Source: Candidatus Shapirobacteria bacterium GW2011_GWF2_37_20 (GTDB lineage: Bacteria; Patescibacteriota; Microgenomatia; UBA12405). From it: a DNA stretch of 64,000 bases. Below, piece after piece: positions 5,832 to 36,450 of the stretch. Every line of letters starts with the position of its first letter. Positions within the stretch are counted from its first letter, which is position 1. The notes below the pieces were generated by a model. That model ran no database searches and had not been told where the DNA came from. It saw only the letters and a list, made by a program, of their open reading frames with translations. Location of the stretch: positions 4,409-68,408 of the forward strand of contig LBTB01000005.1 of the NCBI GenBank assembly GCA_000989305.1. Direction: 5' to 3'. The translations under genes and the position numbers were made by a program.

Positions 5832-6755
5832 ATGGAACAACATCCGATTCCACAACAGATTACCTCCTACGAATTTAAGCTGGTGGGAGAAATGACCCTG
5901 AAGCAATTTGCCAGAGCGGCGGGAGGAGTAATTTTGGCATTAATTATCAACTCGACAAAGCTGGTGTTTTTCATTAAATGGCCATTAATCGCCATCACGG
6001 CTGGGGGGGGCCTGGCTTTGGCTTTCGTACCTTTTCAGGATAGACCGCTGGAAGTATGGTTGGGGGCTTTTTTGAAATCAATTTATTCACCAACAGTATT
6101 TTTCTATAAAAAGAAAAAACCAACAAACTGGTTGGATATTGACCTGACAAAATCCGTTAAAAAAACAGATGAAGAAGAACCCTTGGTTTTGCCTCAAAAA
6201 GAGACCGAAAAAGTAGCTGAATTTATTGGCTCCTTGCCATCAGTGGGAAGAGAAGAGGAGGTGGAAACAATAAACGAGGTTTTAGAAACAAAGGATGAAA
6301 TCTCAGAAGAAAGAGAGACAGAAAAAGTGGTGGCAGAAGAGAAAAAGTCAGAAGTAGCGGTGGAAGAAAAGACAGAAGAAGGAATTGAAGAAAAGAAAGA
6401 AGAAGTCGGTAGGGCTAATTTGGGATTGAAGACGGAAAAATTAGGCGCAACAGGAAGGGCGGTGTTTGGAGAAATTCCAATGCCAGATATTCCCGACTTA
6501 CCAAATTTAGTGGTAGGAATGGTGATGGACAAAAACGACAAAATAGTGGAAGGGGCGATTGTGGAAATACAAGACAAGGAAGGACATCCAAGCCGGGTGT
6601 TAAAAACAAACCAGTTGGGACAATTTAAAATCCTAACTCAATTAAGTGATGGAAAATATTTGGTGGTAACCGAAAAGGAGGGGTTGGAATTTGACAGAGT
6701 AGAAATTAATTTGGACGGAAATATTGTCAAACCAATCAAGATTCTCGCCAAATAA
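5832..6755 (+). CDS. PrgI-family (VirB3-like) T4SS membrane protein with a long Glu/Lys-rich C-terminal extension
   Basis: The N-terminus IPQQITSYEFKLVGEMTLKQF is followed by two TM helices, as in PrgI-family proteins. The C-terminal half is low-complexity and E/K-rich. Confidence 0.55.
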   Translation: MEQHPIPQQITSYEFKLVGEMTLKQFARAAGGVILALIINSTKLVFFIKWPLIAITAGGGLALAFVPFQDRPLEVWLGAFLKSIYSPTVFFYKKKKPTNWLDIDLTKSVKKTDEEEPLVLPQKETEKVAEFIGSLPSVGREEEVETINEVLETKDEISEERETEKVVAEEKKSEVAVEEKTEEGIEEKKEEVGRANLGLKTEKLGATGRAVFGEIPMPDIPDLPNLVVGMVMDKNDKIVEGAIVEIQDKEGHPSRVLKTNQLGQFKILTQLSDGKYLVVTEKEGLEFDRVEINLDGNIVKPIKILAK

Positions 6756-6782
6756 AACAGAAATAGGTTATCATTAAACAGT

Positions 6783-7481
6783 ATGCCAAGTGACCCATTA
6801 AAAATTGCCATTAAAGGTAGCACCCAGGACAATCTTCCAATTGAAGATATTGTTGATGGAATCGTGATTTTGAAGGACGGATCGGCATCAATGGTGCTTC
6901 AAGTATCGTCTGTTAATTTCGACTTATTATCAGAAAGAGAACAAGGTGCTTTAGTGTTTGCCTATGGAGGAATATTAAACTCGTTAAATTTTCCAATTCA
7001 AATAGTAATAAGCTCGACAACAAAAGATGTGGGTAATTATTTGAATAATCTGGAACTGGCAAAAAACAGCCAACAAAACGAAAAGCTGAAGGAGAGAATT
7101 GCCTCGTATAAAAAATTTGTCGAGGAAACAGTAAAAAGAAATGACGTGTTGTCAAAAACTTTTTATATTGTGATTCCTTTTTCCAGTTTAGAACTGGGAA
7201 TCAAGAATGCGCAAAAACAGATATTTAACTCACTAAACCCAATCAAAAAAGAAGTGGAATTGCCTTTTTCCAAAGAATATATTGTAGAGAAGGCCAAGGC
7301 GAGTTTGCAACCGAAAGAGGATCATTTGGTGAGACTATTTTCCAGATTAGGATTAGAAATAAAGGCTTTAAATACTAAGGAATTAATCGAGCTTTTTTAT
7401 AAAATATATAACGAAGACACCTCAAATAATCAAAAATTACAAAGCGTAAATTATACCGCCGCCGCGGTAACAGGAAAATAA
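6783..7481 (+). CDS. Hypothetical protein resembling a free-standing copy of the Gram-positive VirB4 N-terminal domain
   Basis: It shares IVDGIVILKDGSASMVLQVSSVNFDLLSEREQ...FAYGGILNSLNFPIQIV with the N-terminus of the downstream ATPase (VEGLVSIKDIIAPSAIEVDFNHIRI...FVAGYPRFVGLNWLSTLINF). Confidence 0.4.
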   Translation: MPSDPLKIAIKGSTQDNLPIEDIVDGIVILKDGSASMVLQVSSVNFDLLSEREQGALVFAYGGILNSLNFPIQIVISSTTKDVGNYLNNLELAKNSQQNEKLKERIASYKKFVEETVKRNDVLSKTFYIVIPFSSLELGIKNAQKQIFNSLNPIKKEVELPFSKEYIVEKAKASLQPKEDHLVRLFSRLGLEIKALNTKELIELFYKIYNEDTSNNQKLQSVNYTAAAVTGK

Positions 7482-7488
7482 AAAATAA

Positions 7489-10338
7489 ATGAATTTTTTA
7501 GATTTAATCAAAAAAAAGAAGACCGCTGACGGCTCTGCAGTTCCAATAGACAAGCCAGAAGTAGCGGTGGAGGCAAGGGCCGCTGACGGAACTAAACAAT
7601 TTGTGGAAGGACTGGTGTCAATAAAAGATATTATTGCCCCGTCGGCAATTGAGGTGGATTTTAACCACATAAGAATTGACAACAAATACTTTCGGACTTG
7701 TTTTGTGGCCGGATATCCACGCTTTGTAGGGCTAAATTGGTTGTCAACTCTAATAAACTTTGACGCTTCGTTAAAAACTTCGATGTATATCTATCCAACC
7801 GACGGAAAAGAGATATTGGATGATCTTCGGCGAAAAGTGGCGGAAATGGAGGCGGAAATTAGCACCGACATCCAAAGAGGAAGGGTGGTTAATCCGGCAA
7901 CACAAGCAAAACTAGAAGACGCCCTTAATTTGCAAAGCGATTTGGTAAAGGGAGAGGAAAGATTTTTTCAATTTGGTTTATACATGACATTGTCCTCTAA
8001 GACAAAAGAAGACTTGGATCGATCAACAAAGAATTTGGAATCGGCCCTGGGGGCCCTGATGATAATTTCTAAAAAGGCCAGCTTACAAATGGAGGAAGGT
8101 TTCACAAGTACCCTACCCCTGTGTTCAGACAAACTAAATATAACCAGAAATATGGACACCACATCTTTGGCTAGCACTTTTCCTTTTGTGTCTTCTGATT
8201 TGTCTGACGACAAGGGAATAATGTACGGAATCAATGAACACAACGGCTCACTGGTAATTTTTGATAGATTTTCAATGCAAAACTACAACTCGGTAGTATT
8301 TGCTTCAGCGGGAGCCGGAAAATCATACATGATAAAGCTTGAGGCGATGAGATCTCTAATGTTGGGAACTGATATTTTGGTAATTGACCCGGAAAATGAG
8401 TACCGAAGCCTAGCGGAATCAGTGGGAGGACAATACATTGCTTTTGGGTACGGAGAAGAATCAAAAATTAATCCTTTTGATTTATCGTTGGTGGTGGAAG
8501 AGGGAGAAAATGCCCTAAACGACAAGGTTTTAACGCTTCATAAAATGTTTAAGATAATGCTTGGAGCCATGGACCCAATGGAAGAGTCGATTTTAGACAA
8601 AGCGGTGATGGAGGCTTATAAGGCCAAGGGAATTACTCCTGATCCGGAAAGCCAAAAGAAGGAAGCACCATTGATTGAGGATTTATATAAGGCCTTAATC
8701 GGGATGGAAGAGGAAAAAGCTAAGAATTTAGCGGCAAGGTTGGAAAAATATATCAAGGGTTCTTTTGCGGGAATCTTTAACCAAAAAACAACAATAAATT
8801 TAAAGAATTCTTTTGTGGTGTTTGGAATCCGAAACCTTGAGGAAAGCTTAAGGCCGGTAGCAATGCACATTATTTTAGATTACATTTGGACAATTGTTAA
8901 AAGAGAGCTGAAAAAGAGAATCCTAATTGTGGATGAGGCTTGGTATTTAATGCAATACGATGACTCGGCGGCATTTTTACGGGGAATCGTAAAGAGAGGC
9001 CGAAAATATTACTTAGGAGTAACAACAATAACCCAGGATGTAGACGACTTTTTGGAGACACCTTACGGAAAAGAAATTGTGACCAACAGTGCCATTCAAA
9101 TCTTACTAAAACAACACAGTGCGGCCATCGATAAGGTGGGAGAAACATTTTACCTATCTGAGGGAGAGAAGCAGTTGTTGTTGTCGGCAGATAAGGGTGA
9201 AGGAATATTTTTTGCCGGACAAAATCATGTAGCAATTCAAGTAATCGCCTCTGACGAAGAACATAAATTGATTACTTCTAATCCTGAGGATTTGTTGAGA
9301 CAAAAAATTGCTGAAAAACAGGCGGCAATTGTTAAACAGGAACTACCGCAAGTAATTGAGGAAGAGACGGAAAACAAAGACGAGAGTCCAGAGACAAAAA
9401 TAGGGAAAAAAGTAGACCCGGCTATTGTGCCAACTGAAGCTGGAATTAGCCAGGTAAAAGAAGAATTAAAACCAGTTCCGACTCCGGAAATGGCGAAGGA
9501 ACCGATGGTTTCTGTGCCAGTAACGGAAACAAAGACTGAGATTAAAGCGGAAGAAAATCTTAAGCCCCCAACCCCGACAGATGCCGAAACGCCCCCCCTC
9601 AATCCTCCTTTGCCCGCGACTTCAGACCTACAGAACAAAGAAGATTCAGAAAGCGCCGAAGAAAAACCACAAATATTGTTTAAATCTGAGGTAGAAGAAT
9701 CACCGGAGGAAATCTTAAAGAAAAGAATTGCTCAAATGGAAGTACAAGAGAAAAAGGAAATAGAGGAACATAAAATCAAAGAGGCTGAAGAGGCTAAAAA
9801 CACTCAAGGCGGGATGGGTAAATTTGACGGAAGTGTCGGGGCCCTACCGAAATATCAGGAATTATTTAAGTCGCCAACATCAAAATTACCACCTTTGCCA
9901 CCTTTGCCAAAATTTGAAGCACCAAAACAAAGTGGTAATTTACCAAAATTTGAAGCTCAAAAACCCAGCTTTTTAACTCAAACCGAGGAAAAAGTAATTC
10001 CCCAACCACCACAATTAGCCAAAAAGGCAAAAGTGGAATTTGTTCCGGCTCCGCCACCGATCAAAACGGACACCCCTCTTAATGAAGAAAAAATCAGGGA
10101 AAAGAAGGGGGAGGAAATAAAAGCAACTGAGATTAAAGAAGTTGGTGAGACAAAACAAAGTCCCTCCCCTGATGTAAAGACGGAAGTTCTCCCTGACACT
10201 CCTTCACAAAAAGCTTCGGAGATGCAGAGTAAGGGAGACCAAGAAAAGAAAATAGACGAAGCAAAACCTGCTTCCACTGATGGTGCCGGTGAGGCGAAGA
10301 TGACTTACGAAGAATTATTCGGAAACGACAAAACATAG
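7489..10338 (+). CDS. VirB4/TrbE/PrgJ-like T4SS ATPase with an about 350-aa Pro/Glu/Lys-rich C-terminal tail
   Basis: Walker A ASAGAGKSYMIK, Walker B RILIVDEAWYL, and a VirB4-type N-domain. The tail (about 9250-10338) is low-complexity and contains the repeat LPKFEA x2 and PPLPPLP. Confidence 0.8.
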   Translation: MNFLDLIKKKKTADGSAVPIDKPEVAVEARAADGTKQFVEGLVSIKDIIAPSAIEVDFNHIRIDNKYFRTCFVAGYPRFVGLNWLSTLINFDASLKTSMYIYPTDGKEILDDLRRKVAEMEAEISTDIQRGRVVNPATQAKLEDALNLQSDLVKGEERFFQFGLYMTLSSKTKEDLDRSTKNLESALGALMIISKKASLQMEEGFTSTLPLCSDKLNITRNMDTTSLASTFPFVSSDLSDDKGIMYGINEHNGSLVIFDRFSMQNYNSVVFASAGAGKSYMIKLEAMRSLMLGTDILVIDPENEYRSLAESVGGQYIAFGYGEESKINPFDLSLVVEEGENALNDKVLTLHKMFKIMLGAMDPMEESILDKAVMEAYKAKGITPDPESQKKEAPLIEDLYKALIGMEEEKAKNLAARLEKYIKGSFAGIFNQKTTINLKNSFVVFGIRNLEESLRPVAMHIILDYIWTIVKRELKKRILIVDEAWYLMQYDDSAAFLRGIVKRGRKYYLGVTTITQDVDDFLETPYGKEIVTNSAIQILLKQHSAAIDKVGETFYLSEGEKQLLLSADKGEGIFFAGQNHVAIQVIASDEEHKLITSNPEDLLRQKIAEKQAAIVKQELPQVIEEETENKDESPETKIGKKVDPAIVPTEAGISQVKEELKPVPTPEMAKEPMVSVPVTETKTEIKAEENLKPPTPTDAETPPLNPPLPATSDLQNKEDSESAEEKPQILFKSEVEESPEEILKKRIAQMEVQEKKEIEEHKIKEAEEAKNTQGGMGKFDGSVGALPKYQELFKSPTSKLPPLPPLPKFEAPKQSGNLPKFEAQKPSFLTQTEEKVIPQPPQLAKKAKVEFVPAPPPIKTDTPLNEEKIREKKGEEIKATEIKEVGETKQSPSPDVKTEVLPDTPSQKASEMQSKGDQEKKIDEAKPASTDGAGEAKMTYEELFGNDKT

Positions 10339-10353
10339 GATATAATTTAAGTC

Positions 10354-13300
10354 ATGAGTGAGTCTCCAAAAAACATAAAAGTATTAGTTGGGGCTCTTAG
10401 AGATCTGCAAGGTCGGGTATTGCTTAGCAACGAAAGACTTTATATCGAAAGTCGCCAAGTATTTGAAAAATTACAGGGTCTGAAACTAGCAAAAACAAGC
10501 GACCTTGACGTAAACCATATTGATAAAACAATTAAGGTTTTGGAGGCGTTGCCAAAGGAGATTACCGAGCTTGATATTGAAGAATTAGGCAAAGAATCCA
10601 AGGAGCCCGAATCGAAGGCGTTGAACGAAAAAGAACTAGACCAACTCCTGGATGATTACAAAAAGTCTGAAAGCGAGAATGAAAAAGGAAAAATAGAAGA
10701 AAAAATTAAAAAATCGGGAAACAAGGAAAATGTTGACCGCTTTATTGACACTCAGAAAGAAATTGCTAAAAAATTTAAGGAGGAAGCGGCTTTCGAATCG
10801 GCAAGTAAGACTCGGGCAAAAAAAACAATAATGGAGCTGGTCGACGAATTTAAGAAAGCAGGAAATGATAAGAAAAGAGAAATCGAAAAAGAAATATACC
10901 TTATAACCGGGGAAAAAGATGCGCAAAAGTATATCCAAAAAAGTGAGGCAGTGGTAAACAGAAACACCAAAGGTTTGGAAAAAATAAACGTAGACTTGAG
11001 AGAAAAAGTGTCCCAAGATTTAATTAAAATCAGTGAAAACCAACCCGAAAAGGTGGTTAAAATTGTCGAAGAGGCAAGTTTGAAAGAAGAATTTGATAAA
11101 AAAAGAACGGAGAGGGAAATTAAAAAAAATGTTAAGGGCTCCGAGGAAGCAGAAAGAATTGTTCAAAAAATTGAAGAAATAAGAGCAGAAATTAAAGTCG
11201 AAGGCAAAGCAGAAGAGATTGCTCAAATAACTTATGAGAAATTAAAAACAGAGAATATTCCGGTATCAGAAAGGATTAAGGTTGAATTAAAAGAGGAAAT
11301 TTTAAGTTCATGGAAAGAGGGCGACGAGATAAAGATTCCCGACCAGTTACAGGGCAAGGGCGGGGAAATTGTTGTCAGAGAAGCGGCAAAAGCGGCAGAT
11401 ATTTTCAAGGAAAATAACTTGGAAGTAGTGGTTAATTATCGCGCGGGAGAGTTAGGAAAAGAAATCGGGACGGAATTAAGAAGAAGCGGAGTAAGTGATG
11501 AAAAATTGATTGAAAGATATGTTGAGGTGAGCAATAGGTTGACCAATAATCCAGAAACAATAAGGGTTGAAGCGAAGAGGGGTGAAATTGCCAATTTTGT
11601 TGAAGCTAACAATAAAAATGTTGGTGCAGGAGAAGTGGAAAGATCGATAGATGAGGCGAGATTTATGGCAAAGAGCGTAGTAATGGCGCCAAAGAAATTT
11701 AACAAAGCCATAAAAGATTACAACGAAGCAAGAGATTTAATTGGAGCAGAAAAACTACCAAAACTAAAAGAAATTAGGGTGGTGGAAAAAATGACCTCTC
11801 TTTTCAAGAACAGTCCGGGAATGTTGAGACTGATGAACGGAGCCCAAAGAATGACGGGCATCTTTCAAAGAATAAATGCTTTTCCGGGAAGTTTACTGGC
11901 AAGAACTGGAATGCAAAAAGCGGGTTATAAAATCTTGGGTAAAATTGGAGGACAGGCGGCGGTTGAGTTTGTAAAAAATGCAGCGGCAGTAATTGCAAAA
12001 GAAGGTACATTGCAAGGTGTTAAAACAATAGCCTTAAGTTTGATGGGTAAGGGGGCGGTGGTAGCGGGCAGTGGAGCGGCTACCGGCGGAGCCTTGGCAG
12101 GAGTAGTGGCGGCTTTTCAGGCTCTACCCGTGGTGGGACAAGTGGTGGCGGTGGTGGTAGCGGCGGTAGTACTTCTTAAGGGAGTAATTGATGGGGTGAA
12201 GGGGGTTTTGAGCAAGATAACCGGCCTAGACATGAACGGAGTAAAAAACTTTGTTTCAGACACTTTGGGACTGGGAAAGTTTGTTGGAGGAACGGTACAA
12301 TTTGCGGCTGATGTGGGTACTTTATTGGTTGGAATTCCGACTTTTATTGGGATGTTGGCCATGGGGGCGATTGTAACTCCGGTTGTAATATTTTTCTTTT
12401 TGGGAACAATGGCTTACTCCATGTTTCAACAAAACCTGGTGTCATCTCTAGTGCCGCCGGCAGACATGAGTAATTGTGTACTGAAAAGTGAATACGGCGG
12501 AGCAATAAACTGTGACCAAAACGCGCCGGAAAATTCAATAACCGGTGTAGATAAGGCTAATTTTATAGACATAGCAAATAGGTGGCAGAGCGGATCAAAT
12601 TTTGCCAGCGTTTGTTATAACGACACGGTAAACAGAGCGTTGTGTGCCGGAATTAATCCTACCTATGCTTTATGGGTGTGGTTACACGAATCCGGAGCTA
12701 GCAACTACTCACGTGACGATATCGAAGATTTTGGAATTCACGACAGTACAACCCCAAATAGAAATTTTGACGCACAAATTACGAAGTTTTTAACATTAAC
12801 CGGGGTAGGAAGTAGGTGTTTGTCTGACCCAAGAATCAATGGAGATTTTTGGTTGTCCTGGGCAACAAGTTATTTGAACGGATATGATTGTGATCCGGAC
12901 AAACCGAACTCAATATTTCCCGACATGACTCCAAGAAAATATGCGGCGGGGCTTAGAGACCAATGGACCTGGATTAGTAGTTCGCCAATACCTAATGGAA
13001 TTTTGGTAGCCAAGGGAGGAAAAAACTGCGGCCAGATCGGGATAGGATCGACAGAATATGCCGGAAATGCCCATGAAGTAACTGATAAGGATGGAAATGT
13101 ATGGGTGTGTACGGAAAATACACAATCGCCAATAGGTGATTTTGACCCTAATTCTCCAGGGTTGGGTGGAGTAGTTGTTGATGGGGAATGTAGCGTGGGA
13201 GAAGTAGTAGTGCCAACAAGACAATGTGATTCTCAATGGGGACAAATACCGCTTAACGGCGGGAGTTGTGCTAATGGAAAACCGGGAACAATATGTTCGG

Positions 13301-13749
13301 CGGGATGTGGCCCAACCAGCGTGTCAATGTTGACCAGACATGTAAACGGATCTTTAACGCCAAATAATGTTATTTTCAGTCGAGGGTCAGCTTATTACAA
13401 CATGGGATGTGAAGGTTCAAGTCTTAGTCAGGCACAAACAGAATTGGTTAAACAATTTGGCAGCGAAGCAGTAAGCCTTGATTCTGTTACTCAGGGCTGT
13501 GATGAAAAAGCGATTGCCAATTGGATTTGTAGCGGAAAAGTGGTGATGGTATTGGCAAATTTTTACCGAAACACAAGCTTGGAACTGGGAGGGCACTTTG
13601 TAATGGCAGTGGGAGTTAGAGATGGAAAAATTGTAGTCCAAGACCCTTATTACGATGCGACGGACACCCCGTTTGACGGGACCAAGGCATACGGCTATGC
13701 TCACGATATCAGAGGATGCTTATTAGTTGATAAGACGGCAGTAAAATGA
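10354..13749 (+). CDS. Large membrane-anchored protein: coiled-coil N-terminal region, TM/Gly-Ala-Val-rich segment, and C-terminal lysozyme-like plus Cys/His peptidase-like (C39/CHAP-like) domains. Candidate PrgK/VirB1-like cell-wall hydrolase.
   Basis: About 550 aa of E/K-rich coiled coil are followed by hydrophobic helices (VVAVVVAAVVLL..., IVTPVVIFFFLG). The C-terminal part has a candidate nucleophile Cys in GCGPTSVSM and His in GGHFVMAVGVRDGKIVVQDP. Confidence 0.5.
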   Translation: MSESPKNIKVLVGALRDLQGRVLLSNERLYIESRQVFEKLQGLKLAKTSDLDVNHIDKTIKVLEALPKEITELDIEELGKESKEPESKALNEKELDQLLDDYKKSESENEKGKIEEKIKKSGNKENVDRFIDTQKEIAKKFKEEAAFESASKTRAKKTIMELVDEFKKAGNDKKREIEKEIYLITGEKDAQKYIQKSEAVVNRNTKGLEKINVDLREKVSQDLIKISENQPEKVVKIVEEASLKEEFDKKRTEREIKKNVKGSEEAERIVQKIEEIRAEIKVEGKAEEIAQITYEKLKTENIPVSERIKVELKEEILSSWKEGDEIKIPDQLQGKGGEIVVREAAKAADIFKENNLEVVVNYRAGELGKEIGTELRRSGVSDEKLIERYVEVSNRLTNNPETIRVEAKRGEIANFVEANNKNVGAGEVERSIDEARFMAKSVVMAPKKFNKAIKDYNEARDLIGAEKLPKLKEIRVVEKMTSLFKNSPGMLRLMNGAQRMTGIFQRINAFPGSLLARTGMQKAGYKILGKIGGQAAVEFVKNAAAVIAKEGTLQGVKTIALSLMGKGAVVAGSGAATGGALAGVVAAFQALPVVGQVVAVVVAAVVLLKGVIDGVKGVLSKITGLDMNGVKNFVSDTLGLGKFVGGTVQFAADVGTLLVGIPTFIGMLAMGAIVTPVVIFFFLGTMAYSMFQQNLVSSLVPPADMSNCVLKSEYGGAINCDQNAPENSITGVDKANFIDIANRWQSGSNFASVCYNDTVNRALCAGINPTYALWVWLHESGASNYSRDDIEDFGIHDSTTPNRNFDAQITKFLTLTGVGSRCLSDPRINGDFWLSWATSYLNGYDCDPDKPNSIFPDMTPRKYAAGLRDQWTWISSSPIPNGILVAKGGKNCGQIGIGSTEYAGNAHEVTDKDGNVWVCTENTQSPIGDFDPNSPGLGGVVVDGECSVGEVVVPTRQCDSQWGQIPLNGGSCANGKPGTICSAGCGPTSVSMLTRHVNGSLTPNNVIFSRGSAYYNMGCEGSSLSQAQTELVKQFGSEAVSLDSVTQGCDEKAIANWICSGKVVMVLANFYRNTSLELGGHFVMAVGVRDGKIVVQDPYYDATDTPFDGTKAYGYAHDIRGCLLVDKTAVK

Positions 13750-14135
13750 CAAAGAAAAATAAAATAATTTTAGGACTGACAATTTTAGTAGTGATAGTGG
13801 GAGTGGTGGCGTTTTGGCCAAAAGAGGAAGAAATAAACAAGATTGTTGATAGCCCGGTGGTTGTTCCGGACAGAATAATTACTGATTATGGGAGTGATAC
13901 CGGAGCCAAAGAGATTAGTCTGAGTGAAGAACAATATAGTGAAGTATATTTAATTAAAGACCTGAGAGATAAGGTGCCGATAAACAGAACCTATTTTTTA
14001 ATTGATTTTGACTACGGAGTAAATAAATTTATAGTGAAATATAAAGACACCAACAAAGGGGTGGCTGAGTTTGAAAAATGGTTGGTGGACACCGGATATA
14101 ATGTAATTTCTAAAGAATATTTTCAAATAAAATGA
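13746..14135 (+). CDS. Small membrane-anchored protein (N-terminal TM), translationally coupled to the upstream gene
   Basis: ATGA start/stop overlap with the upstream gene. The N-terminal helix is IILGLTILVVIVGVVAFW. Confidence 0.45.
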   Translation: MTKKNKIILGLTILVVIVGVVAFWPKEEEINKIVDSPVVVPDRIITDYGSDTGAKEISLSEEQYSEVYLIKDLRDKVPINRTYFLIDFDYGVNKFIVKYKDTNKGVAEFEKWLVDTGYNVISKEYFQIK

Positions 14136-14485
14136 TAAAAAACATAAAACAATATTGGTTAGTAGGACTCTTGGTGATAATTGCGGCATGGATGGGGATT
14201 ACAAAAATCAGATATCGAAATGTCGATTGGGACTTTGTCAGCGGGTTAATAACACCGACGGTAATGCCAACGAGAGCCCCGCAAATAAACGCCGACTATC
14301 CTTTGTGGGAATTACTCCCCTACACCGGAAAAGACTTCGTGGTTGACCGCTATACAGAACCTTTAGTGTTGGCAATAAAAACAAATATTAACAAAAACAC
14401 AGTGACCCAAGAGGTTTATAAGTGGTTGCTAGAAAATAACGTAGCAACAGAAAGCCATAAATTAGTTTTTGAAGAAAAAGAATAA
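14132..14485 (+). CDS. Small membrane-anchored protein
   Basis: Overlapping start/stop with its neighbour. The N-terminal helix is YWLVGLLVIIAAWMGI. Confidence 0.45.
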   Translation: MIKNIKQYWLVGLLVIIAAWMGITKIRYRNVDWDFVSGLITPTVMPTRAPQINADYPLWELLPYTGKDFVVDRYTEPLVLAIKTNINKNTVTQEVYKWLLENNVATESHKLVFEEKE

Positions 14486-14760
14486 TGAAAAAATATCTAA
14501 TAATTGCTGCTTTAGTGGTGTCTGCCTTTGGATTGGGTGGTTGCGGAACCCAAAAAACAGAGACAACAATATTAAACTCCGTCGTAAGTCGTGAAGGAAC
14601 ACTAACAATAAAGAGCGGTGAAGTCTATTTATTGTCGACTACGGAAGGAATTGTAAATATAACCAGCAAGAAGGTTGATTTAGATGATTATTTAAAAAAG
14701 AGGATTAAAGTGACGGGGATGTTTTCGGGCGACACCTTGTATGTCGATGAGGTGAAATAA
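14485..14760 (+). CDS. Small putative lipoprotein
   Basis: Signal peptide ending in a lipobox-like motif (AFGLGGC). 91 aa, coupled to the upstream ORF. Confidence 0.45.
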   Translation: MKKYLIIAALVVSAFGLGGCGTQKTETTILNSVVSREGTLTIKSGEVYLLSTTEGIVNITSKKVDLDDYLKKRIKVTGMFSGDTLYVDEVK

Positions 14761-14761: not shown

Positions 14762-15880
14762 TTAATCCTGGATACGGACCGGCATAATGATGTGGGTAAG
14801 AGCAGGGTCAGATTGATCTCGGAAAAGGCCGGGAGAAAGAGGTTCGCTTAGCTCTAAAACAATTTCATCGCCGGTACAAATTGACAAGAAATCAGAAATA
14901 AATTTGTAGTTAAAGGCAATGTCGAGAGCTTCACCCTCAATGCGAGCGTCAACATTTACTTTATTTTGACCAATCTGGGGGGCATTGGCGGAAAGTTCAA
15001 TTGAACTAGCCTTAAGACTAATTTTTACTACATTAGCAGATTCGCGAGCAAAAACAGAGCTTTGTTTGATGGCCTGGGCGAATTCGTCACGATTTAAATA
15101 GATTTTGGTTCCGGATTCTTTGGGAATAATTCGATTGTAGTCAGGATATTCACCATCAATAAGACGGGAAACTAACTCTAAGTCCTCTAAAACAAAAACA
15201 ACCTGATGGGCGTCTTTGGTTAAACCAATTTTTACCTTTTTAGCATTTCGAGCAAGCTTGACAATCTCCAGTAAGGATTTGGCGGGAATTAATAGGGTTT
15301 CTTTTTCTTCAGATAGACTAAGAGGATTAACCAGCTTAATGCTTTTTAACGAGAGACGGAAACCGTCAGTGGCCACCAGTGTTAGTTCTTCGTTACTAAA
15401 GGTACATAAAATAGCGGTGAGAACAGGACGAGAATCGTCGGTGGCGGCGGCAAAGGCAATTTGATTAATAGCCTGAGTTAAAACAGGAAGATCTATTTCA
15501 AATGCAGTCTTTGGATCTAAAGAAGGAATTTCAGGAAAATCAGCCGGAGGAAGACACGCGAAATTGGATTCGGTTTTGGTTGAAGTCAGAGTAAGGATGT
15601 TGGTGTCTTTCAGAGAAAGATCGATTCGGCCAGCTGGCAGATAGGAAACAAATTCGGTGATTTCTTTGGCCGGGAGACAAAAAGAACCTTCGGTTTCAAT
15701 TTTGGCGCCTAACCAATAATTAATAGCTAATTCAAGATTGGTGGCCGATAGTTTGAGACGACCGTTGTCGGTAGAGAAAAGAATGTGGTTTAAAATGGGA
15801 AGCTGGATTTTAGAAGCAACAAAGCGAGAGGTGTGACTTAAGGCTTGAGAAAGATTTTCCTCTAAAAGTGAGAGCTTCAT
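14762..15880 (-). CDS. dnaN: DNA polymerase III beta sliding clamp
   Basis: 372 aa. The N-terminus MKLSLLEENLSQALSHTSRFVASKIQLPILNHILF is typical of DnaN, and the three-domain length fits. Confidence 0.9.
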   Translation of the reverse strand: MKLSLLEENLSQALSHTSRFVASKIQLPILNHILFSTDNGRLKLSATNLELAINYWLGAKIETEGSFCLPAKEITEFVSYLPAGRIDLSLKDTNILTLTSTKTESNFACLPPADFPEIPSLDPKTAFEIDLPVLTQAINQIAFAAATDDSRPVLTAILCTFSNEELTLVATDGFRLSLKSIKLVNPLSLSEEKETLLIPAKSLLEIVKLARNAKKVKIGLTKDAHQVVFVLEDLELVSRLIDGEYPDYNRIIPKESGTKIYLNRDEFAQAIKQSSVFARESANVVKISLKASSIELSANAPQIGQNKVNVDARIEGEALDIAFNYKFISDFLSICTGDEIVLELSEPLSPGLFRDQSDPALTHIIMPVRIQD

Positions 15881-16150
15881 TGACCTATATATTAACAGAT
15901 TGGAGCTTTAGAGAACAGTAGTATTGTTAATAGGGTCGGGGGGAAAGTGGGTAAGATTAAAATATGGTGAAAGTAGAGACTAGAAATGAGAAAGAGGAGG
16001 GTGAATATGTTAGAAATAGCGGAAATATATGGTTTGTGGCAGAGATTTAACTTATAGTGTGTAGCTGGACTTTGGGAAAGTTTCGGGGGAAAAGGAGAGG
16101 GAAAAAAGTGGATAAGTCGGTGGATAAGTAAAGGAAAAAGGTGGATAAGT
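15881..16150. promoter_or_regulatory. dnaA-dnaN intergenic region with a DnaA-box cluster (putative oriC element)
   Basis: Three co-oriented GTGGATAAG boxes (the reverse complement of TTATCCAC) at 16108-16116, 16120-16128 and 16141-16149. There is an additional TTGATAAG at about 16174. AT-rich sequence lies upstream at 15890-16060. Confidence 0.6.
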
Positions 16151-17515
16151 TTAGAGTGAATTTTTTATTCGGTTGATAAGTTCTTTTAATTGTGGAGAAG
16201 TGGCTAACTCAGAGGCCACCTTGTCTCGGGCGTGCATAATGCTGGTGTGGTCGCGACCACCCAAAAGATCACCAACCTCTTTTAAAGGGATTTTAATTTC
16301 ATTAAGAAGAAGATAGGCGGTGATGTGTCGGGCGGTAACGAGATCTTTTTTTCGTGAAGAGCCACACAAGTCCCCTGTTTTTACGTTGAAATATTTAGCA
16401 CAGACTGACAGAAGGTGACGGGAGTTGAGTTTGGGGGAGGTGGAAGCAAAGGAGGGAGAAAATGAGCCGTTTTGAGAACTAAAGTAGGCGGAAACAAAAT
16501 CGATGTCAACTAATTTATGGCCCTGAGCAAGAGACATAACAGCAATTTCCTGAACCTTGCCTTCAATATCACGGGTGTTGGATTGAATGTTGTCGGCCAG
16601 GAATTGAACGGCTTCGAAAGTGAGGTCTACTCCCTTTTCCTGAGCCTTTTGTTGAATAATAGCAGAGCGCATTTCTAAGTCCGGGGGTTGAATGTCGACA
16701 GTCAAGCCGCCCATGAAACGGGAAACAAGGCGGTCTTCCAGGTCTTTAATGTCTCCCGGCTTACGGTCTGAGGTTAAGATGATTTGTTTACCGGCGAGAT
16801 GGAGGGCGTTGAAGGTGTGAAAAAACTCTTCCTGGATATATTCTTTGCCGGCAAGAAACTGAACATCATCAACTAAAATGCAATCTAACTGGCGGTATTT
16901 GTTTTTAAACTGGTTAATAGATTTGGTTTTGAGGGAGTTGATTAGTTCGTTTCCAAAAGTTTCGGCAGGAAAATATTTTATTTTTAAGTCGGGGTTATTT
17001 TTTAATAATTCGTGGCCAATGGCCTGCATTAAATGAGTTTTGCCAACCCCTACCCCACCCCAAAGGAAAAAGGGGTTGTAGGAAAGTCCGGGGTTTTTTA
17101 CAACTCCTTGGGCGGCGGCATAGGCGAAATTGTTACTGTTACCAACAATTAGGTTGTCGAGAGTGTATTTAGGATGGAGGCCAGCTTGAGAGTGGTTAAG
17201 GGAGGAGGTTTTGGGTTGGTAAGAAAACAAAGGGGTTAGTGAAGGGTTTTGGGAATCATCATTTTTTATTATTTCCTGAACCACAAAATGAAGGGTATTG
17301 TTGTTTTTGGTTTGGTTGTCGAGGGCGCTTTTAAAGAGTTGGTAGTAACGTTTTTGGTTTAGATCACAAAGATAGGCATTGGAACAGGCAATGGTGGCGT
17401 CGAGATTAACAAGAGAAACCAGTTGGGTTTTGACAACAAAGGTTTGGTAAACAGCTGGAGCCAGAACAACCCGGAGTTCTTCCTGGGTGTTTTTCCAAAG
17501 TTGTTCAATGTCCAT
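16151..17515 (-). CDS. dnaA: Chromosomal replication initiator DnaA
   Basis: AAA+ Walker A GGVGVGKTHL, Walker B ILVDDVQFL, and C-terminal DnaA domain IV (ARHITAYLLLNEIKIPLKEVGDLLGGRDHTSIMHA). Confidence 0.95.
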   Translation of the reverse strand: MDIEQLWKNTQEELRVVLAPAVYQTFVVKTQLVSLVNLDATIACSNAYLCDLNQKRYYQLFKSALDNQTKNNNTLHFVVQEIIKNDDSQNPSLTPLFSYQPKTSSLNHSQAGLHPKYTLDNLIVGNSNNFAYAAAQGVVKNPGLSYNPFFLWGGVGVGKTHLMQAIGHELLKNNPDLKIKYFPAETFGNELINSLKTKSINQFKNKYRQLDCILVDDVQFLAGKEYIQEEFFHTFNALHLAGKQIILTSDRKPGDIKDLEDRLVSRFMGGLTVDIQPPDLEMRSAIIQQKAQEKGVDLTFEAVQFLADNIQSNTRDIEGKVQEIAVMSLAQGHKLVDIDFVSAYFSSQNGSFSPSFASTSPKLNSRHLLSVCAKYFNVKTGDLCGSSRKKDLVTARHITAYLLLNEIKIPLKEVGDLLGGRDHTSIMHARDKVASELATSPQLKELINRIKNSL

Positions 17516-17750
17516 ATTAGAAATGAGGGTCTAGATTCTAGAAACTAGAAAAATAGATATTTAATAAAAAATAACTAAAAAACAGGCAGGAATTAGGTCT
17601 CGAGACAAGAGATCCTTTTGGGTTATCCACATCATCATAAATTAGTTTTCCACATTTTGGAATGGGTCAAATACCTCAGGGAGACAAGGCGATAGGTTTT
17701 AGAAACTAGAAAACAACAAAATATTTTGCTGTTTGTGGTAAAATTGCCAC
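17516..17750. promoter_or_regulatory. dnaA/rpmH divergent intergenic region with DnaA boxes (second origin segment / promoters)
   Basis: A perfect TTATCCACA at 17623-17631 and TTTTCCACA at 17647-17655. TGTGGTAAA (two mismatches to the reverse-complement consensus TGTGGATAA, opposite orientation) is at 17733-17741. The motif TAGAAACTAGAAAA occurs twice (17539-17552 and 17700-17713). Confidence 0.55.
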
Positions 17751-17903
17751 ATGAAACAAAAGGGTACATATCAACCAAAAAAGAAAAAAAGAGTCCGTGT
17801 TCACGGGTTTTTAGCAAGAATGGCGACTGCTCTTGGTCGAAAGATTATTAAAAGAAGAAGAGCTAAAGGCAGAAAACACCTGACAATTTCTTCTCAAAAG
17901 TAA
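17751..17903 (+). CDS. rpmH: 50S ribosomal protein L34
   Basis: Translates as [50 protein letters not shown], which carries the L34 signature (HGF.ARM.T..GR....RRR.KGRK.L). It is below the ORF-track size cutoff. Confidence 0.85.
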
Positions 17904-17967
17904 TAAATTTTGTTTTATGATTAAGCCCTCCTGTAACTGGGAGGGCTTTTAATATGTGGGATAATAG

Positions 17968-18288
17968 GTGGTGCTGAAGAAAATAAACAGAATTTGTAAA
18001 AAAAACGAATTTGAGGAAGTAAAGTCCAAGGGAGAAATGAAGGCGACGGAGTTGTTTTCGATAGTTTGGTTAAAAAAGAGCGGAGAAAAAGCTTTTGGGG
18101 CGATAATTTCTAAGAAAATTTCGAAGAAAGCGGTGGACAGAAACCAAATTAGAAGAAGATTAATGGAAGCAGTGAGGTTGAATATGGATATATTTCCTCA
18201 AGGATTTAGGGGAATATTTTTGGTAAAGAAAAATATTTTGAAGAAAAGTGAAACGGAGGTTGAAGAATGCTTAAAAAAATTGTTTTAA
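17968..18288 (+). CDS. rnpA: RNase P protein component
   Basis: 106 aa and basic, located immediately after rpmH. The RnpA-like region is FGAIISKKISKKAVDRNQIRRRL. Confidence 0.8.
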   Translation: MVLKKINRICKKNEFEEVKSKGEMKATELFSIVWLKKSGEKAFGAIISKKISKKAVDRNQIRRRLMEAVRLNMDIFPQGFRGIFLVKKNILKKSETEVEECLKKLF

Positions 18289-18473
18289 AGGTTTTAATTT
18301 TTTATAAAAAATATATATCGAGGGGTTATGATTGCCGATTTATCCCCTCTTGTAGTGAATATACTTACCAGGCGGTAGAAAAAATTGGGGTAATTAAAGG
18401 TCTTTGGATGGGGGTAAAAAGGGTAAGCAAGTGTCACCCTTGGGGTGGTGGTGGCGTAGATTTGATAGAATAA
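18267..18473 (+). CDS. yidD: Membrane protein insertion efficiency factor YidD
   Basis: YISRGYDCRFIPSCSEYTYQAVEKIG...CHPWGGGGVD matches the YidD signature (Cys-rich, HPWGG). Confidence 0.8.
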   Translation: MLKKIVLKVLIFYKKYISRGYDCRFIPSCSEYTYQAVEKIGVIKGLWMGVKRVSKCHPWGGGGVDLIE

Positions 18474-18509
18474 GAGGTTAATTTAGAATTTAGAAATTAG
18501 AAAAATAAA

Positions 18510-36018: not shown

Positions 36019-36450
36019 TTAGCCGGGAATGATAAATTGAGTAATGTTGACGCCGGTGAATTGTTGAATAAAGCTTAAGATTAACCAGGAAGCGATTATG
36101 CCGATAAGTCCAATAAAAGCCATGGTTAGGGTTGAAGAGGCGGTGGCAACAGCCTTTTGTTCACCGCTACTGAGAAGGTATTTAAAGCCGCCACTAATAA
36201 ACATAAAGAGAAAAGCTAAACCGGCAAGTAAAACAATTACCTGGAGAACATTGAAGAAGAGACATTCAAAACCTTGGATGGTGGCAATGTCATTGTAGGT
36301 AACATTACCCAGGCCATTGGGGTTAACAGTAACGCTTTTGACACAGCGACCGGTGGTAGTCCAAGATTGAGGACTTTGGGCAAAAGCAGGAGAAACAAGA
36401 AACAAGAGATTGGAAACTAGAAAGAAGAAGAAAAAGAACATGGTTTTCAT
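36019..36450 (-). CDS. Small 2-TM pilin-like protein, paralog 1 (T4SS pilin/VirB2-TrbC-like candidate)
   Basis: Signal peptide ...LVSPAFAQS, a Cys pair in the mature N-terminus, then TM1 ending in ISGGFKYLLSSGEQKAVATA and TM2 FIGLIGIIASWLIL. Confidence 0.5.
   Translation of the reverse strand: MKTMFFFFFFLVSNLLFLVSPAFAQSPQSWTTTGRCVKSVTVNPNGLGNVTYNDIATIQGFECLFFNVLQVIVLLAGLAFLFMFISGGFKYLLSSGEQKAVATASSTLTMAFIGLIGIIASWLILSFIQQFTGVNITQFIIPG

What the first reader, a model, noticed from the sequence alone, without database searches (positions are those of the whole stretch)
5832..14760. Gram-positive-type T4SS-like module (PrgI / split VirB4 / PrgK-like hydrolase) abutting dnaN and oriC
Seven co-directional, tightly packed genes encode, in order: a PrgI-family (VirB3-like) protein, a free-standing VirB4 N-domain homologue, a VirB4-like ATPase (Walker A GAGKS, Walker B IVDEAW), a 1131-aa membrane-anchored protein with lysozyme-like and Cys/His peptidase-like domains (PrgK/VirB1 analogue), and three small coupled membrane proteins or lipoproteins. 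No VirD4 coupling protein, relaxase or oriT is visible in the window. The module ends 1 bp from the dnaN stop, in the chromosomal origin region. That placement argues for a chromosomally fixed apparatus, for example for DNA uptake or host/partner interaction, rather than a conjugative element.
Basis: partly seen in the sequence, partly recalled or inferred. Interest (0 to 1): 0.75.

Follow-up and report, generated by a model that had tools for sequence, protein, structure and literature searches.

The report
Patescibacteria-type type IV secretion system
This is the chromosomal type IV secretion system that ultrasmall, host-dependent Patescibacteria (here a groundwater Shapirobacteria) carry next to dnaN/dnaA; the gene calls are right, but this kind of system, its lack of conjugation genes and its position were published in 2023-2025.

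Summary
Seven tightly packed + strand genes at 5832-14760 encode, in order:
- a PrgI/VirB3-like protein;
- a free-standing TrsD-like VirB4 N-domain;
- a VirB4 ATPase of the CD1110 family, above NCBIfam's cut-off;
- a 1131-aa membrane-anchored protein with a lysozyme-fold domain and a C39-like Cys/His/Asp peptidase domain;
- two single-pass membrane proteins and a lipoprotein.

The last gene ends 1 bp from the dnaN stop.

The window comes from a Candidatus Shapirobacteria (Microgenomatia, Patescibacteria/CPR) groundwater genome. The order exonuclease–prgI–trsD–virB4–(variable hydrolase)–dnaN–dnaA–yidC recurs in about 50 related species. No integrase, relaxase, coupling protein or att-like repeats were found.

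The system is larger than the flagged span. Six VirB2-like pilin genes, a secreted Cys-rich protein and a VirB6-like membrane protein lie at 32882-38289 on the minus strand.

All of this matches the Patescibacteria T4SS already described (Wang 2023; Quiñonero-Coronel 2025), including the dnaA/dnaN proximity. What the system transports is unknown.

Details that may be new:
- the peptidase module of the post-virB4 hydrolase is swapped between species;
- the VirB6 candidate family carries no annotation;
- the GC skew does not change sign at dnaA.

The parts
5832..6755 (+). PrgI/VirB3-like membrane protein. It has two TM helices (30-68), an acidic E/K-rich linker and a conserved C-terminal CarboxypepD_reg-like beta-sandwich (227-289).
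   Evidence: PF12666 scores 26.1 bits (cut-off 27) and CarboxypepD_reg 24.9 bits. All 30 orthologues hit both families, best E 1.7e-10 and 1.9e-9. TM positions. The KKKK run after TM2 suggests the C-terminal domain is cytoplasmic (inference).
6783..7481 (+). TrsD-like protein: a free-standing homologue of the VirB4 N-terminal domain.
   Evidence: NF041427 TrsD E 7e-10. It matches positions 2-132 of the CD1110 VirB4 model and 103-256 of the Mbov_0397 VirB4 model. PF26593 TraC-like in the precomputed annotation. Present next to virB4 in 73 of 80 related loci.
7489..10338 (+). VirB4-family ATPase lacking the N-terminal domain, with a roughly 350-aa E/K/P-rich, probably disordered C-terminal tail (600-949).
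   Evidence: NF045971 scores 387.5 bits, above the cut-off of 325, over model positions 183-734. P-loop_TraG 3e-29. 4AG5 E 1e-48. Walker A at 275 and Walker B at 480. Tail composition. Orthologue lengths of 528-991 aa show the tail is variable.
10354..13749 (+). Membrane-anchored bifunctional cell-wall hydrolase, the VirB1/PrgK/CwlT analogue. It has an E/K-rich N-terminal half (1-560), three TM segments (576-674), a lysozyme-fold domain (about 715-900, invariant Glu in HESGAS at 778) and a C39-like Cys-His-Asp peptidase (967-1099).
   Evidence: Peptidase_C39_2 30.5 bits, cut-off 24. Model and fold matches. Motif positions. The equivalent slot in 34 relatives carries M23 (9), VanY (4), NlpC/P60 (4), CHAP (4) or C39_2 (3). 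It is 57% identical in L001, where VirB4 is 92% identical.
13746..14135 (+). Small single-pass membrane protein (129 aa), translationally coupled by a 4-bp overlap.
   Evidence: TM at 7-25. No family hit. Found only in the two closest relatives.
14132..14485 (+). Small single-pass membrane protein (117 aa), translationally coupled.
   Evidence: TM at 8-26. No family hit. Detectable in 14 related loci, in 13 of them just upstream of dnaN.
14485..14760 (+). Small lipoprotein (91 aa, LGGC lipobox). Its stop lies 1 bp from the dnaN stop.
   Evidence: Sequence. Signal-like segment at 4-22. Weak lipoprotein signal-peptide hits.
32882..34555 (-). VirB6-like polytopic membrane protein: signal peptide, a roughly 130-aa external region and about 8 TM helices.
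   Evidence: It has no Pfam or NCBIfam hit, and 711 or more homologues carry no annotation. In the AlphaFold model (mean pLDDT 70), 9 of the 14 best PDB matches, including the first seven, are TrwI/VirB6 chains of the R388 T4SS stalk (8rt9_F E 0.016, prob 0.99). It lies a few kb upstream of prgI in 8 distant relatives. It follows the pilin array in L086 and L087.
34594..36015 (-). Secreted Cys-rich protein (473 aa, 10 Cys) between the pilin array and the VirB6-like gene. Its role is unknown; it sits where a VirB5-type or tip component would (speculative).
   Evidence: Signal segment at 4-22. No family hit. A protein of variable length (265-418 aa) occupies the same slot in L086 and L087.
36019..38289 (-). 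Array of six VirB2-like T4SS pilin genes: 36019-36450, 36525-36905, 36959-37408 (the true start is probably further downstream), 37290-37652, 37633-37962 and 37966-38289.
   Evidence: PF18895 T4SS_pilin scores 33.5, 25.6, 34.6, 26.8, 27.7 and 23.2 bits against a cut-off of 26.6. Sub-threshold hits to NF045849, the Mbov_0395 pilin-like conjugal transfer protein. Each has a hairpin of two hydrophobic helices. Pairwise identity is 23-37%.
14762..17515 (-). Context: dnaN (14762-15880) and dnaA (16151-17515), with a DnaA-box cluster in their spacer.
   Evidence: Pfam hits. DnaA boxes at 16107, 16119, 16140 and 16191.
17516..18509 (.). Context: the dnaA upstream region, with a perfect DnaA box (17623) and a one-mismatch box (17646). 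It is followed by rpmH, rnpA and yidD and carries copies of the motif TTAGAAAYTAGAAAA.

Best explanation
The locus is the core of a chromosomally encoded, vertically inherited Patescibacteria-type type IV secretion system. It descends from the conjugation machinery of monoderm bacteria (the MPF-FATA class) in a Candidatus Shapirobacteria genome.

**Shown here**
- Module A (5832-14760) encodes the membrane-anchored motor: PrgI/VirB3-like, a TrsD-like VirB4 N-domain and the VirB4 ATPase. It also encodes a membrane-anchored lysozyme-fold plus cysteine-peptidase cell-wall hydrolase and three small envelope proteins.
- Module B (32882-38289, minus strand) encodes six divergent VirB2-like pilins, a secreted protein and a VirB6-like channel protein.
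- Neither module has a relaxase, coupling protein or integrase nearby.
- The arrangement next to dnaN/dnaA is conserved across many Microgenomatia species.

**Inferred**
- PrgI and TrsD dock hexameric VirB4 to the membrane, as VirB3 and the VirB4 N-domain do in solved T4SSs.
- VirB4 powers assembly of a VirB6-based channel and a pilus-like filament.
- The hydrolase opens peptidoglycan at the site.
- The apparatus mediates contact-dependent exchange with the host cell, either import of host macromolecules or export of effectors, rather than conjugation. In a cultivated Saccharibacterium the homologous system is essential for epibiotic growth.
- Because the peptidase module of the hydrolase is exchanged between species and the protein evolves much faster than VirB4, I think it acts at least partly on the host's wall. 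That step is my inference only.
For: **Gene identities:**

**Hydrolase fold and catalytic motifs:**

**Module swapping in the post-virB4 slot:** M23 x9, VanY x4, NlpC/P60 x4, CHAP x4 and C39_2 x3 of 34.

**Pilin array:**

**VirB6-like fold and linkage:**

**Taxon and conserved synteny:**

**No conjugation or integration genes or att repeats:**

**Affinity to monoderm systems**
- The nearest plasmid VirB4s are from Bacillota and Actinomycetota, at 30-38% identity.
- A Pontibacillus plasmid has the same order: pilin-like, large protein, small protein, TrsD-like, VirB4 and an M23 hydrolase.

**Literature**
- PMC12102498 describes this T4SS clade, TrsD, PrgI, pilin arrays (abundant in Microgenomatia), the absence of relaxases and the dnaA/dnaN proximity.
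- PMC10633639 shows by Tn-seq that the T4SS genes and pilin array of Southlakia epibionticum are essential during co-culture, and that no coupling protein or relaxase is recognisable.
- PMC12857230 and PMC11665869 summarise this and state that the role is unknown.
Against: - No function was tested here. The direction and substrate of transport are unknown even in the model organism.
- PrgI is 0.9 bits under Pfam's cut-off in this protein. TrsD is far below NCBIfam's subfamily cut-off (39 vs 200 bits).
- The VirB6 assignment rests on a medium-confidence model and weak Foldseek E-values (0.016-0.25), although the top hits agree with each other.
- A coupling protein or relaxase could be encoded elsewhere in the genome, which I could not search.
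- No VirB8-like component was identified.
- Whether the hydrolase acts on its own wall or the host's wall is untested.
Confidence: 0.85

Rival explanations
1. The region is an integrated conjugative element, or a decayed remnant of one, that happened to insert beside dnaN.
For: The proteins are homologues of conjugation proteins of Gram-positive plasmids and ICEs. The nearest non-Patescibacteria relatives are plasmid-borne.
Against: - The same gene order between the exonuclease gene and dnaN is kept in about 50 species, with VirB4 down to about 58% identical.
- No integrase, relaxase, T4CP, flanking tRNA or att-like repeats occur.
- G+C content matches the flanks.
- All genes are intact and tightly coupled.
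- The literature finds relaxases in only 103 Patescibacteria genomes, rarely near virB4 (PMC12102498).
Confidence: 0.03
2. It is a dedicated DNA-uptake (competence) machine of the Helicobacter ComB or archaeal Ced type. It would import host or environmental DNA as a nucleotide source.
For: - VirB4 gives weak hits to the archaeal DNA-import ATPases CedB (1e-14) and CedD (4e-5), far below their cut-offs.
- There is no relaxase or T4CP.
- The organism is expected to lack nucleotide synthesis, as Patescibacteria generally do.
- DNA or macromolecule import is the hypothesis favoured in PMC12102498 and raised in PMC11665869.
Against: - No DNA-binding or ComEC-like component lies in either module.
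- The CedB/CedD hits reflect shared ATPase ancestry only.
- In S. epibionticum, comEC is needed for transformation but dispensable for growth, while the T4SS is essential. So the essential role is not classical competence (PMC10633639, PMC12857230).
- Nothing distinguishes import from export at the sequence level.
Confidence: 0.15
3. It is an effector-export system. The T4SS injects proteins, possibly including wall-degrading enzymes, into or onto the host bacterium to subvert it. The fast-evolving hydrolase would itself be a host-directed weapon rather than an assembly factor.
For: - The post-virB4 hydrolase evolves fast (57% vs 92% for VirB4 in L001).
- Its peptidase modules are swapped between species. 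That pattern is expected for host-directed enzymes.
- Effector delivery is the speculation recorded in PMC10633639 and PMC11665869.
Against: - The hydrolase has three TM segments and a 560-aa N-terminal region without a signal peptide. It looks anchored rather than secreted.
- No candidate effectors or T4CP-type substrate receptor are in the window.
- Two-domain wall hydrolases are standard assembly factors of Gram-positive T4SSs (PrgK, TraG, CwlT; background knowledge and PMC12102498).
Confidence: 0.25

Closest known systems
Patescibacteria (CPR) T4SS, as defined by Quiñonero-Coronel et al. 2025 (PMC12102498) and shown to be essential in Ca. Southlakia epibionticum ML1 (SEML1_0006-0019; Wang et al. 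2023, PMC10633639)
   Same: - VirB4 with MPF-FATA affinity.
- Adjacent TrsD and PrgI/VirB3.
- Peptidase/lysozyme-type hydrolase directly downstream of virB4.
- Array of six divergent VirB2-like pilins (PF18895).
- A VirB6-like protein.
- No relaxase or coupling protein nearby.
- Location beside dnaA/dnaN, reported for Microgenomatia and Paceibacteria.
   Different: - Here the pilin/VirB6 module is 18 kb from the virB4 module, on the other strand.
- The VirB6 candidate is invisible to HMMs. The paper notes that VirB6 homologues are scarce in Microgenomatia.
- PrgI carries a conserved C-terminal beta-sandwich.
- VirB4 carries a long E/K/P-rich tail.
- The paper did not find VirB1 homologues strongly linked to virB4 outside Paceibacteria. 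Here a large hydrolase always follows virB4.
pGO1/pSK41-type Gram-positive conjugation system (TrsC, TrsD, TrsE, TrsG), a subclass of MPF-FATA
   Same: - Split arrangement of TrsD (VirB4 N-domain-like) followed by the VirB4 ATPase.
- A VirB3-like small membrane protein upstream.
- A two-domain wall hydrolase.
   Different: - Those systems are plasmid-borne with a relaxase, oriT and coupling protein, and they transfer DNA.
- They lack VirB2-like pilins.
- Scores against TrsD are far below the family cut-off (39 vs 200 bits).
PrgK (pCF10), TraG (pIP501) and CwlT (ICEBs1): VirB1-type bifunctional wall hydrolases of monoderm T4SSs
   Same: Membrane-associated, encoded in the T4SS operon, and combining a lysozyme-superfamily glycosidase with a cysteine peptidase.
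   Different: - No SLT or CHAP HMM hit in this protein. The peptidase is C39-like, and the glycosidase fold is closest to GH73/GH23.
- It has a 560-aa charged N-terminal region and three TM segments.
- The peptidase module varies between species.
Chromosome-like T4SS cluster on the 898-kb non-mobilizable plasmid of Pontibacillus sp. ALD_SL1 (NZ_CP062975), and the Mbov_0395-0397 genes of Mycoplasma ICEs
   Same: - Same order: pilin-like genes, large protein, small protein, TrsD-like (30% identical), VirB4 (38% identical) and a 1051-aa M23 wall hydrolase.
- The window's pilins give sub-threshold hits to the Mbov_0395 pilin-like family.
   Different: These are in Bacillota and Mycoplasmatota, not next to dnaA, and their function is untested. 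The similarity suggests the pilin genes may have come with the monoderm system rather than from diderm T4SSs (inference).
R388/Agrobacterium VirB system (MPF-T), the structural reference
   Same: Equivalents of VirB2, VirB3, VirB4, VirB6 and VirB1. The model of the 557-aa protein best matches TrwI/VirB6 of the R388 stalk.
   Different: No VirB7/9/10 outer-membrane core, no VirB11, no VirD4 and no recognisable VirB5 or VirB8. The organism is a monoderm.

Membership tests
VirB4/TraC/CagE ATPase family (T4SS signature protein) | Significant match to curated VirB4 models above the family cut-off | tested here: met
   NF045971 (VirB4-like, CD1110 family) scores 387.5 bits against a cut-off of 325. 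TraC-F-type scores 2.9e-56 and VirB4_CagE 9e-37, both below their own cut-offs. PF19044 scores 102 bits against a cut-off of 25.8. 4AG5 E 1e-48.
VirB4/TraC/CagE ATPase family (T4SS signature protein) | Intact Walker A and Walker B motifs | tested here: met
   GAGKS at residue 275 and IVDEAW at 480.
Patescibacteria-type T4SS (PMC12102498) | TrsD-like gene adjacent to virB4 | tested here: met
   6783-7481, 7 bp upstream of virB4. TrsD E 7e-10. Present in 73 of 80 related loci.
Patescibacteria-type T4SS (PMC12102498) | PrgI/VirB3 homologue adjacent | tested here: met
   PF12666 scores 26.1 bits, marginally below the cut-off of 27. All 30 orthologues hit it, best 1.7e-10. Two TM helices.
Patescibacteria-type T4SS (PMC12102498) | VirB2-like pilins (PF18895), often in arrays of divergent paralogues | tested here: met
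   Six genes at 36019-38289. Four are at or above the 26.6-bit cut-off. Pairwise identity is 23-37%.
Patescibacteria-type T4SS (PMC12102498) | VirB6-like polytopic membrane protein | tested here: inconclusive
   No HMM hit. The structure model's top PDB matches are TrwI/VirB6 chains, but with E 0.016-0.25 and TM-score 0.35-0.45. Genomic linkage to prgI or the pilins supports the assignment.
Patescibacteria-type T4SS (PMC12102498) | No relaxase or coupling protein associated with virB4 | tested here: met
   None among the 58 window ORFs scanned, which are all the non-nested ORFs of 120 aa or more. The rest of the genome was not searchable.
Patescibacteria-type T4SS (PMC12102498) | VirB4 falls in the monophyletic Patescibacteria clade | not tested
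   No phylogeny was built. Indirect support: all of the 80 best genome hits whose record titles are informative are Microgenomatia or other Patescibacteria. The best non-Patescibacteria plasmid hit is only 38% identical.
Integrative conjugative element / conjugative plasmid | Relaxase with oriT and a VirD4/TcpA-type coupling protein | tested here: not met
   No such Pfam or NCBIfam hits in the window.
Integrative conjugative element / conjugative plasmid | Integrase and flanking att repeats; variable presence among related genomes | tested here: not met
   No integrase. Only chance-level direct repeats. The module is present at the same site in about 50 related species.
PrgK/TraG/TrsG VirB1-type hydrolases | SLT (PF01464) glycosidase domain plus a CHAP domain | tested here: not met
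Chromosomal replication origin (oriC) adjacency | DnaA-box clusters beside dnaA, and a GC-skew sign change | tested here: inconclusive
   DnaA boxes cluster at 16107-16199 and 17623-17654. Skew stays positive on both sides, with only a step. More distant relatives do show the sign change at dnaA.

The most novel reading that the evidence does not exclude
The T4SS works as a host-piercing feeding conduit. The membrane-anchored hydrolase, whose peptidase module is exchanged between species to match the host's peptidoglycan chemistry, would breach the host wall. The VirB6 channel and a filament built from the variable pilins would then carry host macromolecules inward, powered by the split VirB4. 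In this reading the hydrolase module and the pilin set together determine host range. The import idea itself is already in the literature. The host-range role of the swapped hydrolase modules is the untested addition.
Probability: 0.2. Interest if true: 0.8.

Novelty: already known. Interest (0 to 1): 0.3.

Why it matters
Patescibacteria make up a large share of bacterial diversity and live attached to host cells. How they extract what they need from the host is an open question. Their T4SS is one of the few machines known to be essential for that lifestyle.

This window adds no new kind of system. It does give a clean, complete example from the little-studied Microgenomatia, and it points to three testable details:
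- A large wall hydrolase always follows virB4, and its peptidase module is swapped between species (M23, VanY, NlpC/P60, CHAP, C39). This makes it a candidate host-specificity determinant.
- An unannotated family of more than 700 proteins is a likely VirB6 equivalent. That fills a gap the 2025 survey noted for Microgenomatia.
- The GC skew in this lineage does not switch at dnaA. The published idea that origin proximity raises T4SS gene dosage therefore needs checking for this lineage.

Tried and rejected
1. **ICE or prophage-like insertion: rejected.** I searched for integrase, relaxase, T4CP, flanking tRNAs and att-like direct repeats and found none.
2. **Sequence-profile search of the PDB with the lysozyme-like domain alignment (A4).** It gave only spurious I-CreI matches. 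A single-sequence PDB search of the hydrolase C-terminus gave nothing. The fold assignment therefore rests on the structure model alone.
3. **Peptidase part of the hydrolase model.** It was too poor to use (pLDDT 20-40, only 8 sequences). Only Pfam and the conserved Cys/His/Asp support it.
4. **Sequence searches for VirB6.** Pfam at E up to 5, NCBIfam, and PDB searches by sequence and by profile all gave nothing for the 557-aa protein.
5. **An HMM built from the six window pilins.** It found pilins in only 2 of 80 related loci. The pilins are too divergent, so linkage was checked through precomputed Pfam annotation instead.
6. **Promoter and terminator scans of 4800-16200.** They were not above shuffled expectation, so there is no statement on operon boundaries.
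7. **The 874-aa ORF at 30119-32743**, beside the VirB6-like gene, was considered as a hidden coupling protein. It has no P-loop, no TM segment and no family hit.
9. **The second rRNA-type explanation for the skew** was not pursued.

Full report
**1. What is there**

The region 5832-14760 holds seven + strand ORFs of 307, 232, 949, 1131, 129, 117 and 91 aa. They are separated by 27, 7 and 15 bp and then overlap by 4, 4 and 1 bp. The last stop codon ends at 14760. The convergent dnaN ORF occupies 14762-15880, so the two stops are 1 bp apart. dnaA follows at 16151-17515. Beyond it, on the + strand, lie rpmH, rnpA, yidD, yidC and jag.

**2. Gene identities**

*ORF1 (PrgI-like).*
- It matches Pfam PrgI at 26.1 bits (cut-off 27) over residues 5-89.
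- It has a CarboxypepD_reg-like beta-sandwich at 227-289 and two TM helices at 30-68.
- All 30 orthologues tested hit both PrgI (best 1.7e-10) and CarboxypepD_reg (best 1.9e-9). The fusion is therefore a conserved feature of this lineage.

*ORF2 (TrsD-like).*
- It matches the TrsD/TraD family (E 7e-10).
- It also matches the N-terminal 130-150 positions of two VirB4 models.

*ORF3 (VirB4).*
- It passes NCBIfam's cut-off for the CD1110 VirB4 family (387.5 vs 325 bits).
- It aligns only to model positions 183-734, so ORF2 and ORF3 together correspond to one full-length VirB4.
- It has Walker A GAGKS (275) and Walker B IVDEAW (480).
- It matches the solved Thermoanaerobacter VirB4 C-terminal domain, 4AG5, at 1e-48.
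- Residues 600-949 form an E/K/P-rich tail. The tail's length varies among orthologues, whose total length runs from 528 to 991 aa.

*ORF4 (hydrolase).*
- Its N-terminal half (1-560) is E/K-rich and has no signal peptide. Three TM segments follow at 576-674, then a Cys-rich C-terminal part with 17 Cys.
- The last domain passes Pfam's cut-off for Peptidase_C39_2 (30.5 vs 24 bits). It keeps a Cys (983), His (1079) and Asp (1094) in the expected motifs.
- The middle domain has an invariant Glu in WLHESGASNY and no HMM hit.
- In an AlphaFold model, that domain reached pLDDT 60-90, while the peptidase part failed.
- The twelve best Foldseek PDB hits are all lysozyme-superfamily enzymes.

*ORFs 5-7.* Each has a single N-terminal hydrophobic segment. 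ORF7 has an LGGC lipobox.

**3. The system extends beyond the flagged span**

At 36019-38289 on the minus strand lie six small genes that hit Pfam T4SS_pilin (PF18895). Four are at or above the cut-off. Each encodes a hairpin of two hydrophobic helices, and they are only 23-37% identical to one another.

Downstream follow a 473-aa secreted, Cys-rich protein and a 557-aa protein with a signal peptide and about eight TM helices. The 557-aa protein belongs to a family of more than 700 unannotated proteins.
- An AlphaFold model from 38 sequences has mean pLDDT 70.
- Nine of its 14 best PDB matches, including the first seven, are TrwI/VirB6 chains of the R388 T4SS stalk. The best has E 0.016 and probability 0.99.
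- In eight more distant Microgenomatia, the homologue lies a few kb upstream of prgI.
- In two other genomes it again follows a six-pilin array and a variable secreted protein.

I regard it as a probable VirB6 equivalent, with the caveat that the scores are weak.

**4. Organism and conservation**

The 557-aa protein is identical to a protein of Candidatus Shapirobacteria bacterium GW2011_GWE1_38. Exact copies of VirB4 occur on groundwater metagenome contigs, including the Rifle aquifer project.

A scan of one genome per species found at least 574 loci encoding relatives of VirB4. Among the best 80 whose record titles are informative, nearly all are Shapiro-, Woese-, Curtiss-, Ames- or Chisholmbacteria or other Patescibacteria. 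Titles such as 'uncultured Gammaproteobacteria', and a few others, look like mislabels from bulk submissions.

tblastn with the window's proteins shows the order exonuclease(-) / prgI / trsD / virB4 / variable region / dnaN(-) / dnaA(-) / yidC / jag in about 50 of these loci. In a more distant group, dnaA-dnaN sits directly downstream of virB4 in the other orientation.

**5. Not a mobile element**

None of the 58 window ORFs scanned against Pfam is an integrase, relaxase or VirD4/TcpA-type coupling protein. These are all the non-nested ORFs of 120 aa or more, plus a few shorter ones. The ORFs left out are nested in longer ORFs or lie inside the 23S gene. The same holds for genes up to 8 kb left of the window.
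- The only tRNAs are 28 kb away.
- Direct repeats flanking the module are at chance level.
- G+C content is uniform.

**6. The slot after virB4**

In 34 relatives, the gene after virB4 is nearly always a large membrane protein (mostly 650-1240 aa), usually followed by one to three small single-pass proteins. Scanned one by one against Pfam, these large proteins carry Peptidase_M23 (9), VanY (4), NlpC/P60 (4), CHAP (4), Peptidase_C39_2 (3) or NAGPA (1).

The lysozyme-like domain of the window's protein recurs in 9 loci. In database proteins it is joined either to the C39-like or to an M23 domain.

The protein is 57% identical in the closest relative, where VirB4 is 92% identical.

So this is a wall hydrolase whose peptidase module is exchanged between species. 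That it partly targets the host wall is my inference.

**7. Relation to known systems**

The closest plasmid-borne VirB4s are from Bacillota and Actinomycetota, at 30-38% identity. The best, on a non-mobilizable 898-kb Pontibacillus plasmid, sits in a cluster with the same order: pilin-like genes (Mbov_0395 family), a large protein, a small protein, a TrsD-like protein (30% identical, E 5e-29), VirB4 and a 1051-aa M23 hydrolase. The window's pilins also give sub-threshold hits to the Mbov_0395 pilin-like family of Mycoplasma ICEs.

The literature already describes this system.
- Wang et al. 2023 (PMC10633639) found an essential T4SS (SEML1_0006-0019) in Southlakia epibionticum. It has an essential pilin series and no recognisable coupling protein or relaxase.
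- Quiñonero-Coronel et al. 2025 (PMC12102498) surveyed Patescibacteria and reported:
  - a distinct VirB4 clade related to MPF-FATA;
  - abundant TrsD and PrgI next to virB4;
  - pilin arrays, especially in Microgenomatia and Saccharimonadia;
  - few relaxases;
  - dnaA and dnaN among the commonest neighbours of virB4 in Paceibacteria and Microgenomatia.

  They proposed a gene-dosage effect and an import function.
- Reviews (PMC12857230, PMC11665869) state that the role is unknown.

The finding is therefore real but already known.

**8. Mechanism**

*Shown:* the parts list, their order and their conservation.

*Inferred from solved T4SSs and from the Saccharibacteria genetics:*
- PrgI and TrsD anchor the VirB4 hexamer to the membrane.
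- VirB4 drives assembly of a VirB6-based channel and a pilin filament.
- The hydrolase opens peptidoglycan.
- The machine serves contact-dependent exchange with a host cell rather than conjugation.

Import versus export cannot be decided from sequence.

**9. The origin claim**

DnaA boxes cluster in the dnaA-dnaN spacer (four within 93 bp) and upstream of dnaA, where there is one perfect box and one with a single mismatch. The gene order is the classical origin arrangement.

Yet the + strand is G-rich over the whole window. The skew is 0.1-0.5 except for about 3 kb near 59-62 kb, where it falls to about 0. It is positive across the minus-strand dnaN and dnaA too.

Third-codon-position skew, expressed on the + strand, is 0.43 for + genes and 0.62 for - genes. 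It stays positive for 8 kb beyond the window's left end. Only a step from about 0.25 to about 0.4 occurs near 17.8 kb.

Close relatives behave the same way. Some distant ones show the normal sign change at dnaA, and others are negative on both sides.

'Abutting oriC' is therefore plausible but not established for this genome, and I have no explanation for the skew offset.

Noticed in passing
window 1-64000 (also L088 1-20960 and L001-L033): The + strand is G-rich over almost the whole window (skew 0.1-0.5, about 0 near 59-62 kb), whatever the gene orientation. Third-position skew on the + strand is 0.43 for + genes and 0.62 for - genes. There is no sign change at dnaA despite the DnaA-box clusters, only a step near 17.8 kb. 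Close Shapirobacteria relatives behave the same way. Some distant Microgenomatia show the usual switch at dnaA. This is unexplained. It bears on the published gene-dosage idea for the T4SS.
   Followed up: partly
window 17532-17552, 17693-17713, 18483-18504: A motif, TTAGAAAYTAGAAAA (part of a 21-nt repeat), occurs four times. All copies lie just upstream of dnaA, rpmH and yidC. The window as a whole has 7 matches at up to 2 mismatches, against 1.5 expected. It could be a regulatory or origin-associated element.
   Followed up: partly
window 43160-48515: The rRNA arrangement is unusual. tRNA-Ile (43160) is separated from tRNA-Ala (45096) by three protein-coding ORFs (a VTT-domain protein and two unknowns). 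23S and 5S follow, but no 16S rRNA gene is detected anywhere in the window, so 16S appears unlinked from 23S-5S.
   Followed up: no
window 5832-6755 and alignment A5: The PrgI/VirB3-like protein is fused through an acidic linker to a strongly conserved CarboxypepD_reg-like beta-sandwich. Residues N225, G229, R255, N260, G263, Q264, F265 and Y276 are invariant. The fusion is present in all 30 Microgenomatia orthologues examined. The positive-inside rule suggests the domain is cytoplasmic.
   Followed up: partly
window 9289-10338 (VirB4 residues 600-949): VirB4 has a long E/K/P-rich, low-complexity C-terminal tail with short internal repeats, for example at 9903-9964. It is present in the Shapirobacteria group (total VirB4 length up to 991 aa) and absent in distant relatives (about 530-650 aa).
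   Followed up: partly
L085 (Pontibacillus sp. ALD_SL1 plasmid NZ_CP062975, 351-361 kb): A Bacillota megaplasmid typed as non-mobilizable carries a cluster with the same order as the Patescibacteria system: pilin-like x2, large protein, small protein, TrsD-like, VirB4 and an M23 hydrolase. It lies next to flagellar genes, and no relaxase is annotated nearby. It may be a non-conjugative relative in a free-living monoderm.
   Followed up: partly
window 38395-42594: Next to the pilin array lies a conserved cluster: a 7TM_transglut membrane protein, an ATPgrasp_ST protein and two RimK-like ATP-grasp ligases. The same cluster flanks the pilin array in L086 and L087. Any functional link to the T4SS is unknown.
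   Followed up: no
window 58871-62395 (minus strand): A 1174-aa ORF has a higher G+C content (about 0.49 vs 0.40) and near-zero overall GC skew, unlike its surroundings. It has no convincing family hit and may be foreign or unusually composed.
   Followed up: no
window 5811-5831: Only 21 bp separate the divergent start codons of the 5'-3' exonuclease gene and prgI. The promoters of both must therefore lie inside the neighbouring coding sequences.
   Followed up: no
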